Virus record (IMG/VR): IMGVR_UViG_2534681939_000020
Location: 1 to 8,950 of that record
Source: a virus
Lineage: Duplodnaviria > Heunggongvirae > Uroviricota > Caudoviricetes
DNA: 8,950 nucleotides
Direction: 5' to 3' (one strand)
The position numbers are program-made. Positions 1 through 3,000 of the stretch are shown here, piece after piece (positions within the stretch are counted from its first letter, which is position 1; each line of letters begins with the position of its first letter).

Positions 1-3000
1 GTACGTGCGTTTTTCCGGGTCATAGTTTGACGGTACCTGAATGATGCGACCGCGGATATGGTAGTTCACCGTCATCTGCTGACCACCAAACTGCTCCGCA
101 TCCACCTGCAGCCCTACAATCGCCGTGTTCGGGTAGCACTGTTTCACATCGATGATTTCGGTGTATGACGACCACAGCGTCTTATTCTGCAGCTGGTCCG
201 TGGTGCTGTCCGCCGTCTCCCTGACCATCCGGATGTTAAAGGGGCGGGGAGGCAGATTATCCAGAATCACCGACGCCAGGTACTGCGAGGTGGTCTTGCC
301 GTTAATGGTGACATCATTTTCCGTCACCCAGTTACCGTTACGCTGCAACTGAATCAGCAGTCGGACAGAAGAGGGATTACGGTCGCCCTTTGAGGTGGTC
401 TCCAACAGTGACTGCACCCCGAAGGTGACCCGCAGGCGGTCAATGTTCGCGGATGTAATGGTGCGCGTCACCGGCTTTGCCTTCGTCACTTCCACGCCCA
501 GTGCGGTTTCAGCTCCGGAGGACTCAAAGCCTTCAGGTGGTGTCTGCTCCTGCTCCCCGGCGTGCCAGACCGCGGTCACACCATGTATCACAGGATTACC
601 GTCCGTGTCCGTCAGCGGGGTTTTGTTCACCAGGATACTCTGCAGCCCCTTCACCGGACCTTCAATCGGCCCTTCACCAATGGCGTCAATCACGCTCATC
701 ATCTGCGTGGACTTAAGATTGTCCTTTGCCTCTACCGGCGTGTGCGCCTTGCCGCCCCCTTTACCCACTCTGTCCCCCTCTCCTGTCTGATGTCTGAATC
801 TGTTTATGCCAGAAAACAACAGGCACCCCGGAGGGTGCCTGTGTCATGACGGAATAAGATTTCTGAAACTCTTCACATTTCCGGCAATTGCCTGTAGCCG
901 CAATAATGACGCTGCATTACTTTTTTGATGCCTGAAAAATAACTCCATAACGTTAATCTTCATCGTTCTCTCCCGCAGCTCCGCTAACTCTGCGGGATTT
1001 TTTTATTTTCATCCCCGCCCGATAACCACCACTTTCCCGTCTCCGCCCTCATCACGGGTGCTGATGTCCTGGGATATCCGTCGTGAACCAACCAGCATTT
1101 CACCGTAAGGCACCGGCATCGGGTTCCCCTGGGCAATCATGTTATCCAGCGAGGAAAAGTACGTGTTCTGTCTGCCGTTATCCGTTGCCCTGTATTCCGG
1201 TGTTTTTGCCTTCGGGGCAAGCATCTGAGCCACACCACCCAGTATCATGCTGGCACCCAGTGAAAACAGCATCGTGGTGGCAGAAAAACCGCCGGCACTC
1301 AGCGCTGCACCCCAGGCTGCCATCGATGCTCCGGCCGTGAAGAAAGAGCCCACGATGGCCGCCGCCCCCAGCACAATCTGCAGTCCACCCTTTCCGGCCC
1401 CGGCCAGTCGCGGCACAATGTGGATGACCGTTCCCTCACCCAGCTGTTCGTGAAGACGGGCGTACACCGCCTCCGGTGCCGTGTCATCACCGGCAATACG
1501 TATCTGGTACCAGCCTTCGTTCATCTGACGGCGGAATCCCGGCATCTGCATCGACAGGGCACGGATGGCTTCCGCTGCCGTGTTCACATACAGGCTGAGG
1601 CGGCGGCCAAATCGTTGTAAATCCCCGTGAAGGCAGATACGTGCCAGTGGCGGTGACGCCAGGCTGAATGCGTTCGTCGTTGCCATTTTTCGGAATACCT
1701 CTCCCGTTTACTCAGTTGTTCAGGCAGATGGTGAAGCAGTTCACCGTTGCCGCAGTAAATGGCGGCATGATTGGCCACCGATGCGCCAAAGCAGCACAGC
1801 AGGATATCGCCAGCCTGTGCAGAGGCAGGGAAACCCGGTAAAAGCCTGTGACCGCCATATTGTCCAGGTAAAGGTTCTGACCGTTGCGCCACCAGTCATC
1901 CTCACGCTCAAAATCCGGCATATCAATTCCCGCCAGATGGTAGGCATCCCGGAACAGCGTGTAACAGTCCGTCACCCCGTGCTCAAAGCGCCGTCCTGTC
2001 AGATGTGGCACACAGCGGAATTTATGAATTTCCCCCCGACAGACCAGCCACCAGGACAGTGCACTTTTTATCTGCAGCCGCCGGTCGGCCTCGCTCAGCC
2101 AGGGCAGACCACCGGGATGACTGTGGACCAGTGCCACAATCTCCCCCTGCATTTCTGCCCGCAGCCAGTCCTCCGGCGACATCCGGAAATAATCTTCCGG
2201 CTCACCGGAGATATTCACGCAGGGAAAATATCTTTCCCCTTCCGGCGTTCTCACCACGAAGCCGCACGACTCCGCTGGCGCACATCGCCGGGCGTGCGCC
2301 AATATATTGCTATAGAGCATGAGAACTCCTGATAAAAACCCAGCCGAAGCTGGGTCATTTCGTTGGCAATCTGTTAGTAGTGATGCGGTGAAGGAGGTAA
2401 TTCTTTATTCTTAAGTCTCATCCATGCGGAAAGATTCGTTGGTCCGTCTGGCTCATTGATATCAACATCTCGTGTGTGATTAATTAAAACGTCTCTCGCC
2501 ATTCCAATAACATACGAGAACTCATGACCGTAGTCGTAGCATCTGCCGGAATAGTTCGATTGAATTTGTTTTAGCGCCGGATACAGTTCGCGGAATAATG
2601 CCTGTGAGCGGTTGGCATAATCCCATAGCCATGCAAGGCTGTTTGCTTCTTTTGCGGAAAGCTCGTTGGTGCTCTTCTCTTGTTTGCCAATGAATTCACC
2701 TTCAAGCACTACCCTGTGGATGTACTCTACGGCAAGCGGGATTTGTTCAATTGAAAGCTCATCAATGCTGTCAATACCAGAACGCTGATGAACCATATTG
2801 TATGCATCGTCATTGCGAAGTCCTTTCTTTCCTACCAGCATGTTTACTGCATCGCGTAGCGGTGTTCTTTCCTCAACAATGGTTTTCTTTCCTTTTACAT
2901 ACTCGCCATGTTTGCGAATTGAAGGCAGAACTTCTGCTGTTACCCACTTGCGGAATTTGTGCGGGACTGAACCTTTATTGACTGCATCGCGGCAGCGCAG

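What the first reader, a model, noticed from the sequence alone, without database searches (positions are those of the whole stretch)
1820..1835. K frame break separates the NlpC/P60 catalytic Cys from its His
The JAMM motif and NlpC/P60 Cys are encoded in one frame (1712..2320) and the NlpC/P60 His and C-terminus in another (1584..1892). Adding one base to the G3 run at 1828-1830 restores a lambda-K-like junction (YRVSPASAQAGD).
Basis: partly seen in the sequence, partly recalled or inferred. Interest (0 to 1): 0.4.

Follow-up and report, generated by a model that had tools for sequence, protein, structure and literature searches.

The report
One-base gap in prophage K gene
A phage tail-assembly gene (lambda K type) in a dead E. 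coli prophage is split by one missing base, most likely a consensus error in a short draft contig, so it is ordinary.

Summary
On the minus strand, ORF 1712-2320 carries the JAB/JAMM domain and the NlpC/P60 Cys. ORF 1584-1892 carries the NlpC/P60 His residues and the C-terminus. Homology switches frame at 1823-1830.

The gene is a lambda-K-type tail-tip assembly gene lacking one base relative to every homologue examined.

The window is the whole of contig AIFJ01000031.1 (8950 bp) from the draft assembly of E. coli DEC3F. The finished genome of O157 strain 493/89 has the same prophage, including an ISEc12-truncated L gene seen in no other of 5,426 genomes. Its K (245 aa), tape-measure and T genes are intact.

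Against it the contig has 24 substitutions and five single-base indels. All five indels are unique to the contig and all break tail genes (K, H three times, T). A 2.1-kb stretch around the ISEc12 junction has no differences.

All five K substitutions match other natural K alleles, and the deletion sits where two alleles differ.

I read the break as a consensus artefact of a multi-copy region (about 0.7). The alternative is a private pseudogene mutation in a prophage that is already defective (about 0.27). Programmed frameshifting and a natural split are rejected. Interest is low.

The parts
1829..2320 (-). K gene 5' part in its first reading frame: codons 1-164 homologous to intact K. It holds the complete JAB/MPN domain and the first half of NlpC/P60, including Cys119 (codon at 1964-1966). 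The ORF then runs out of frame to a stop at 1712-1714.
   Evidence: ORF list; Prok-JAB at 55 bits; motif coordinates; alignment to intact K.
2084..2125 (-). JAMM metal-binding motif HSHPGGLPWLSEAD (HxH...S..D). The upstream Glu17 lies in AESCG at 2261-2275.
   Evidence: Motif coordinates; alignment to the JAB-domain structure 2kks.
1823..1830 (-). Frame-break zone: one base fewer than in all homologues. The most parsimonious gap lies between 1825 and 1826 (minus-strand CTG^CC). It sits inside a 22-nt patch (1812-1832) carrying four differences from the nearest allele.
   Evidence: Pairwise and multiple DNA alignments.
1584..1826 (-). K gene 3' part in the -1 frame: SAQAGD through to the stop codon. 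It holds the NlpC/P60 His185 (codon at 1767-1769), His198 (1728-1730) and the C-terminus.
   Evidence: NLPC_P60 profile positions 49-105; alignment to the NlpC/P60 hydrolase 9ubf; coordinates.
1009..1686 (-). Tail assembly gene I (ubiquitin-like TAPI). It overlaps the K 3' end in the third frame and is intact.
   Evidence: Lambda_tail_I at 61 bits, residues 15-97 of the 225-aa ORF.
2374..3252 (-). Antirepressor gene (Bro-N plus P22AR C-terminal domains) inserted between L and K, as in related Stx phages. It is intact but carries the private change V207A.
   Evidence: Pfam; annotation of relatives; singleton status and residue comparison.
3551..4200 (+). ISEc12 (IS21-family) istA fragment. It truncates gene L and replaces the Arc-like gene pair present in relatives.
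   Evidence: Annotation in 493/89; ISEc12 matches and the uniqueness of the junction; relatives with intact L and Arc genes.
4201..4449 (-). Remnant of minor tail gene L, missing its C-terminus. With L truncated the prophage cannot make a tail, whatever the state of K.
   Evidence: PGAP pseudogene annotation in 493/89; Phage_tail_L hit on the 94-aa product.
4783..8028 (-). Tape-measure gene H, cut into four ORFs by single-base insertions at 5193, 6264 and 7532.
   Evidence: ORF list; difference list; all three insertions absent from four other alleles.
8080..8362 (-). Tail assembly gene T, reached from G by a -1 frameshift. It is broken by a single-base insertion at 8201.

Best explanation
The locus is the K gene of a lambdoid, Stx-phage-like prophage. 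K is a tail-tip assembly protein of about 245 aa. It has an N-terminal JAB/MPN metallopeptidase domain and a C-terminal NlpC/P60 cysteine peptidase domain, and it is encoded between L and I.

In the deposited sequence one base is missing at 1823-1830. The JAB domain and the NlpC/P60 Cys are therefore read in one frame, and the NlpC/P60 His residues in the -1 frame.

The window is an entire 8950-bp contig of the draft assembly of E. coli DEC3F. It consists of tail genes that occur in about a dozen paralogous prophage copies per O157-type genome. The most likely cause of the missing base is a consensus error made where reads from two slightly different K alleles were merged. It is one of five such single-base indels on the contig.

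Shown: the break, its position, its uniqueness, the contig's identity, and the intact state of the same prophage in a finished genome. Inferred: that the cause is technical rather than mutational.

Either way there is no functional consequence for the phage, because gene L is already truncated by an ISEc12 fragment.
For: 1. **Source.** The exact Ant and M proteins of the window occur on one record only, AIFJ01000031.1 (contig length 8950) of GCA_000249355.2. NCBI names them '[Escherichia coli DEC3F]'.
2. **Same prophage in a finished genome.** 493/89 (NZ_CP038412.1) matches the whole window at 99.7%. It is the only one of 5,426 genomes with the ISEc12/L junction, which is 100.0% identical over 948 nt. 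There K is an intact 738-nt gene (WP_001303040.1), H an intact 3243-nt gene, and T is intact.
3. **Indel load.** Against that genome the contig has 24 substitutions and five single-base indels. All five indels are absent from 493/89 and from three other alleles and from the WGPS2 tail module. Each breaks a tail gene. Four are insertions, and only one of the five extends a same-base run.
4. **The contig's K version is unique.** No place in 5,426 E. coli genomes exceeds 97.2% identity over 1760-1900. Exact-pattern scans of genome, viral and metagenome collections found nothing. The 202-aa ORF product is not on record anywhere.
5. **The K substitutions come from other alleles.** All five match bases seen in other natural K alleles. 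For five random changes this has P of about 3e-6. Within 1812-1832 the pattern alternates between WGPS2-type and 493/89-type bases. The deleted position is one where those two alleles differ. They are colinear there, so a clean crossover would not remove a base.
6. **Where the differences fall.** There are none in 2634-4732, the stretch around the ISEc12 junction; that junction (3253-4200) matches only two places in 493/89. All 29 lie outside it, in J, I, K, the ant 3' end, M, H and T and one intergenic site. A gap this large has P of about 0.011.
7. **Private protein changes.** Seven nonsynonymous substitutions on the contig are absent from the four close relatives compared; the five outside K and within the WGPS2 module are absent there too. 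Two of them (Ant V207A, M K20E) were also checked against cluster members and are absent there. All ten substitutions shared with other alleles are synonymous.
Against: - No reads were available, so a technical origin is inferred, not shown.
- That DEC3F is strain 493/89 itself is my recollection of the DEC collection and could not be verified in the literature held. If DEC3F is only a relative, some differences could be real.
- The prophage is already defective because L is truncated, so selection would not remove real frameshifts.
- Four of the five indels are isolated insertions with no allele-derived substitution next to them. Read mixing does not directly explain these; they need a separate cause such as ordinary base-calling error.
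- I did not show that a WGPS2-type K allele is present in the DEC3F or 493/89 genome.
Confidence: 0.7

Rival explanations
1. The one-base deletion is a real, private mutation. K has become a pseudogene in a cryptic prophage that can no longer build tails because L is truncated. The tape-measure and T frameshifts are further real decay, and the local patch comes from gene conversion with a paralogous K allele.
For: L is truncated by ISEc12 in both the window and 493/89, so the tail genes are not under selection. K alleles in one genome are numerous: 11 places in 493/89. Recombination between prophages is therefore plausible, and the substitutions in K are clearly allele-derived.
Against: Five frameshifts plus seven private nonsynonymous changes in 9 kb is a heavy load against a prophage that shares an identical, otherwise unique IS junction. 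Meanwhile 2.1 kb around that junction shows no change at all.

The indel-to-substitution ratio is 5:24, insertions outnumber deletions 4:1, and most indels lie outside same-base runs. From general knowledge of bacterial mutation spectra, that is unlike replication slippage.

The alternating allele pattern within 22 nt, and a deletion between two colinear alleles, are not what one conversion tract gives. None of the variants is seen in any other assembly.
Confidence: 0.27
2. The two-frame arrangement is functional. Either a programmed -1 ribosomal frameshift joins the halves, or K is naturally split here into a JAB-plus-Cys protein and a His-bearing protein.
For: Going from the first frame to the second needs a -1 shift. 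The sequence GGGTTTC lies at the junction. Tail operons do use -1 frameshifting, as at G/T, where A_AAA_AAG lies at about 8392-8398.
Against: GGGTTTC and TTTCCCT are both out of phase for a -1 slip from the K reading frame, and the longest same-base run in the overlap zone is T4.

No homologue shares the two-frame arrangement. All inspected alleles have the extra base, and the family is made of single 244-247-aa proteins.

The break cuts the NlpC/P60 domain in the middle, at profile position about 49 of 105. Apparent two-gene versions divide at the domain boundary, about residues 106-130. The downstream ORF has no homologous start.
Confidence: 0.02

Closest known systems
Intact K allele WP_001303040.1 ('C40 family peptidase', 245 aa) of E. 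coli O157 strain 493/89, strain C325 and O145 strain RM12522-C8 prophages
   Same: 99.2% DNA identity over the gene. Same position between ant and I, and same neighbours. In 493/89 it lies in the same ISEc12-disrupted prophage.
   Different: The window lacks one base at 1825/1826. It carries five substitutions: four synonymous, and P164S.
Phage lambda K / 'TAPK' family: JAB/MPN plus NlpC/P60 tail-tip assembly protein (Iyer, Burroughs and Aravind 2006, PMC1779556)
   Same: Same two-domain architecture, catalytic motifs and gene neighbourhood next to the ubiquitin-like protein I. The proposed role is processing of I during tail-tip assembly; I is stated not to be in the mature tail (the paper's inference).
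   Different: About 75% DNA identity in the junction stretch. An antirepressor gene sits between L and K, as in related Stx phages. As deposited, the NlpC/P60 domain is split across two frames.
Lambda reference record J02459, K annotated as 199 aa
   Same: It is also a K gene whose deposited sequence lacks one base relative to its homologues, so part of a domain falls in another frame.
   Different: In lambda the missing base is at about codon 47, in the JAB N-terminus. There it shortens the annotated protein rather than splitting the NlpC/P60 domain. 199-aa clusters holding thousands of member sequences are on record.
PHROG families for JAB-only (phrog_2635, 135 aa) and NlpC/P60-only (phrog_2552, 142 aa) tail proteins
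   Same: These families cover K-like sequence as two separate pieces.
   Different: Their boundary is at the domain junction, about residues 106-130. The window's break is at residue 165, inside the NlpC/P60 domain.

Membership tests
Lambda K / TAPK tail-tip assembly protein | N-terminal Prok-JAB/MPN domain with JAMM residues (Glu, HxH, Ser, Asp) | tested here: met
   Prok-JAB at 55 bits against a cut-off of 25. AESCG and HSHPGGLPWLSEAD are present in the first frame. It aligns to the JAB-domain structure 2kks.
Lambda K / TAPK tail-tip assembly protein | Complete NlpC/P60 domain (Cys...His...His) in the same polypeptide | tested here: not met
   As deposited, Cys119 is in frame 1712-2320 and His185/His198 are in frame 1584-1892. 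All residues are encoded, and the domain is complete after adding one base.
Lambda K / TAPK tail-tip assembly protein | Single uninterrupted ORF of about 244-247 aa | tested here: not met
   The window has ORFs of 202 and 102 aa. Homologues are mostly 244-247 aa.
Lambda K / TAPK tail-tip assembly protein | Position in the tail operon downstream of L and immediately upstream of, and overlapping, gene I (ubiquitin-like TAPI), followed by J | tested here: met
   ORFs and Pfam. The same order is annotated in relatives. Family neighbourhood as described in PMC1779556.
Lambda K / TAPK tail-tip assembly protein | Peptidase activity, or a role in tail-tip assembly | not testable with these tools
   Needs biochemistry or genetics. 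Assembly is in any case moot here because L is truncated.
Programmed -1 ribosomal frameshift site | In-phase slippery heptamer X_XXY_YYZ at the frame junction | tested here: not met
   The only heptamers in the overlap zone, GGGTTTC and TTTCCCT, are out of phase. By contrast the G/T site A_AAA_AAG is in phase.
Programmed -1 ribosomal frameshift site | Two-frame organisation conserved in homologues | tested here: not met
   All inspected homologues have one more base and a single ORF.
Naturally split K (separate JAB and NlpC/P60 genes) | Gene boundary at the inter-domain junction, with a start codon for the second gene | tested here: not met
   The break is at residue 165, inside NLPC_P60 (residues 109-222 in intact K). 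PHROG split families divide at about residues 106-130.

The most novel reading that the evidence does not exclude
The deletion is real, and the truncated product is made from this cryptic prophage. That product would be a complete JAB/MPN domain, half an NlpC/P60 domain, and 38 out-of-frame residues. It would have some host-side activity, for example as a stand-alone JAB peptidase acting on ubiquitin-like proteins I from the many co-resident prophages.
Probability: 0.02. Interest if true: 0.25.

Novelty: not a real feature. Interest (0 to 1): 0.05.

Why it matters
It matters little biologically. K genes of this type are among the commonest prophage genes in E. coli: 14,782 matching places in 4,368 of 5,426 genomes. 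This prophage is also already dead.

The practical lesson concerns annotation. Short draft contigs made of multi-copy prophage genes can carry several consensus indels that look like pseudogenes. Frame breaks on such contigs should be checked against finished genomes or reads before being interpreted.

Tried and rejected
- **Exact-pattern scans.** I scanned for the window's junction, allowing either repair, in genome contigs, viral contigs and metagenome contigs. There were no matches. These scans have little power for E. coli strain variants, because the genome collection holds one genome per species.
- **Exact look-up of the 202-aa ORF product.** It is not on record. The gene caller used a 168-aa start instead.
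- **Literature search to confirm that DEC3F is strain 493/89.** Searches for the accession, 'DEC3F', 'DEC 3F' and '493-89' gave no usable link, and the DEC genome announcement is not in the library. The identity stays a recollection.
- **Programmed frameshift.** Rejected: no in-phase slippery site and no conservation.
- **Natural split.** Rejected: the break is mid-domain.
- **One clean gene-conversion tract from a WGPS2-type allele.** Rejected as the sole explanation. The allele pattern alternates within 22 nt, and the two alleles are colinear, so no base would be lost.
- **Homopolymer miscalls as a common cause of all five indels.** Rejected: only 6264 (TT to TTT) extends a run.
- **Locating the other K paralogues of 493/89.** I could not do this, because the search tool lists one place per record.

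Full report
**1. Is the observation in the sequence?**

Yes. On the minus strand there are two overlapping ORFs, 1712..2320 (202 aa) and 1584..1892 (102 aa). Pfam finds Prok-JAB in the first. In the second it finds only the distal half of NLPC_P60, profile positions 49-105 of 105.

Motif coordinates were computed directly:
- JAMM Glu in AESCG at 2261-2275
- HSHPGGLPWLSEAD at 2084-2125
- NlpC/P60 Cys119 in VTDCYTLF at 1952-1975
- His185 in NHAAIY at 1755-1772
- LLHH at 1719-1739

Homology to intact K leaves the first frame after FYRVS, ending at 1829. It resumes in the -1 frame with SAQAGD, from about 1823. The break is therefore inside the reported 1820-1835. The G3 run at 1828-1830 exists, and adding a base there gives YRVSPASAQAGD and a 245-aa protein.

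**2. What is the gene?**

It is a lambda-K-type tail-tip assembly gene. The intact homologue (245 aa, WP_001303040.1) has Prok-JAB at residues 2-103 and NLPC_P60 at 109-222 in one ORF. It matches PHROG 'minor tail protein' families. It aligns to a JAB-domain structure (2kks) and to an NlpC/P60 hydrolase (9ubf) over the His region.

The family is described in Iyer, Burroughs and Aravind 2006 (PMC1779556). [quoted passage not shown] It is proposed to process TAPI during tail assembly.

The window as a whole is a lambdoid tail module on the minus strand. The genes, from low to high window coordinates (operon order runs the other way, V to J), are:
- J (5' part)
- I
- K
- an antirepressor gene
- an ISEc12 fragment
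- an L remnant
- M
- H (tape measure)
- T
- G
- V (part)

**3. Comparison with relatives**

K-I DNA of this type is very common: 14,782 places in 4,368 of 5,426 complete E. coli genomes. It is also found in 268 phage records, mostly Stx-converting phages.

The closest record is E. coli O157 strain 493/89 (NZ_CP038412.1), at 99.7% over the whole window. There K is an intact 738-nt gene, H an intact 3243-nt gene, and T is intact.

A base-by-base comparison gives 24 substitutions and five single-base indels:
- one deletion in K, at 1825/1826
- insertions at 5193, 6264 and 7532 in H
- an insertion at 8201 in T

All five indels are absent from 493/89 and from three further alleles (O145, O157 PV15-279, O55:H7). 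They are also absent from the Stx2a_WGPS2 tail module.

Over 1760-1900, no place in any of the 5,426 genomes exceeds 97.2% identity, and the listed hits all span 142 nt against the query's 141. Phage homologues covering the whole stretch, down to about 77% identity, also span one base more.

Homologous proteins are overwhelmingly 244-247 aa with both domains, in E. coli, Salmonella, Citrobacter, Edwardsiella and Yersinia.

**4. Where exactly is the base missing?**

On the minus strand the sequences are:
- window: GGG TTT CCC TG- CCT CTG CAC AGG CTG G
- 493/89 type: GGG TGC CCC TGT CCT CTG CAC AGG CGG G
- WGPS2 type: GGA TTT CCC TGC CTT CCG CAC AGC CTG G

The gap aligns after CTG, between window 1825 and 1826. 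At that position the two allele types differ (T versus C).

Those homologues show that the four residues between YRV and AQ[PA]GD vary (PLSS, PLSA, SLPS, ALTE and others) while their number stays constant. Conservation alone therefore cannot fix the site, and DNA comparison favours 1825/1826.

**5. Where does the window come from?**

The window's exact Ant and M proteins occur on one record only: AIFJ01000031.1, contig length 8950, from GCA_000249355.2. NCBI names them '[Escherichia coli DEC3F]'. The window is thus an entire short contig of a draft assembly, bounded by the multi-copy genes V and J.

The ISEc12 fragment and the L-truncation junction (3253-4200) are 100.0% identical to 493/89. 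They are present in full in no other of the 5,426 genomes. DEC3F and 493/89 therefore carry the same defective prophage. My recollection is that DEC3F is strain 493/89 in the DEC collection, but I could not verify this in the papers available.

**6. Artefact or mutation?**

Several lines point to a consensus artefact.

(a) All 29 differences lie outside 2634-4732, which is 2.1 kb without a single change and includes the junction (3253-4200), a stretch that matches only two places in 493/89. For 29 uniformly placed differences, P is about 0.011.

(b) The five substitutions in K all coincide with bases found in other natural K alleles. For random changes, P is about 3e-6. Within 22 nt the pattern alternates between WGPS2-type and 493/89-type bases. 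The two alleles are colinear there, so a simple crossover or one conversion tract would not delete a base. A column-wise consensus of mixed reads could.

(c) The contig carries seven private nonsynonymous substitutions, whereas all ten substitutions shared with other alleles are synonymous. Ant V207A and M K20E are absent from the cluster members examined, and the exact proteins are singletons among about 15 billion.

(d) Five single-base indels per 9 kb, four of them insertions and only one extending a same-base run, is unlike the usual mutational spectrum (general knowledge). It is like raw-read error carried into a consensus.

Against this, no reads were inspected. The prophage is already dead because L is truncated, so real frameshifts would be tolerated. 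The four isolated insertions are not explained by allele mixing.

I put the artefact reading at about 0.7 and a real private pseudogene at about 0.27.

**7. Functional alternatives**

A -1 shift would be needed to join the two frames. The only X_XXY_YYZ heptamers in the overlap zone (GGGTTTC, TTTCCCT) are out of phase, and the longest same-base run there is T4. No homologue conserves the arrangement.

The genuine recoding site of this operon is at G/T: A_AAA_AAG, immediately before the G stop at about 8392-8398.

A natural split is excluded because the break is mid-domain. PHROG families that look like separate JAB and NlpC/P60 genes divide at about residues 106-130.

**8. Verdict**

The proposed repair site is not specifically supported.

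The feature is most probably an error of a draft contig. At most it is a trivial pseudogene lesion in a prophage that cannot make tails anyway. Novelty is none and interest is low.

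Noticed in passing
window 5193, 6264, 7532 (gene H, 4783-8028, minus strand): The tape-measure gene is cut into four ORFs by three single-base insertions. 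All three are absent from 493/89, three other E. coli alleles and the Stx2a_WGPS2 module. Two of them sit immediately before the same heptamer: G[A]CACCGGA and G[T]CACCGGA.
   Followed up: partly
window 8201 (gene T) and about 8392-8398 (end of gene G): Gene T is broken by a single-base insertion (CTGT[C]GCCCC on the plus strand). The normal G/T -1 slippery site A_AAA_AAG lies in phase just before the G stop codon.
   Followed up: partly
window 3551-4449: An ISEc12 (IS21-family) istA fragment truncates gene L and replaces the pair of Arc-like genes that relatives carry between ant and L. The junction is 100% identical to 493/89 and is found in full in no other of 5,426 complete E. coli genomes.
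   Followed up: yes
L005 (lambda J02459, about 14266-14276 in the record): The lambda reference sequence lacks one G (GGAGGC-TATTTC) relative to K homologues. The first 45 or so codons of the JAB domain, including the conserved Glu, therefore fall in another frame, and K is annotated as 199 aa. 199-aa protein clusters holding thousands of member sequences are on record. I did not check whether this is a known sequencing error or a real lambda trait.
   Followed up: partly
window 1587-1686 (start of gene I): The Pfam Lambda_tail_I match begins at residue 15 of the 225-aa ORF that starts at the ATG at 1686. The longer ORF therefore looks like the true I gene, as in the lambda annotation (223 aa, overlapping K by about 100 nt). 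The 192-aa GTG-start version annotated in the RefSeq relatives looks N-terminally short.
   Followed up: partly
window 7612-7624 and 1-316: Four synonymous third-position changes at 7612, 7618, 7621 and 7624 match the O55:H7 USDA5905 H allele. Three of the five differences in the J end (4, 82, 286) match other alleles. Either the contig is a mosaic of paralogous prophage alleles, or it is a merged consensus of them.
   Followed up: partly
window 2633 (ant V207A), 4733 (M K20E), 5814, 6409, 7781 (H), 316 (J): These are nonsynonymous substitutions not seen in the relatives examined. The exact Ant and M proteins are singletons among about 15 billion proteins.
   Followed up: partly
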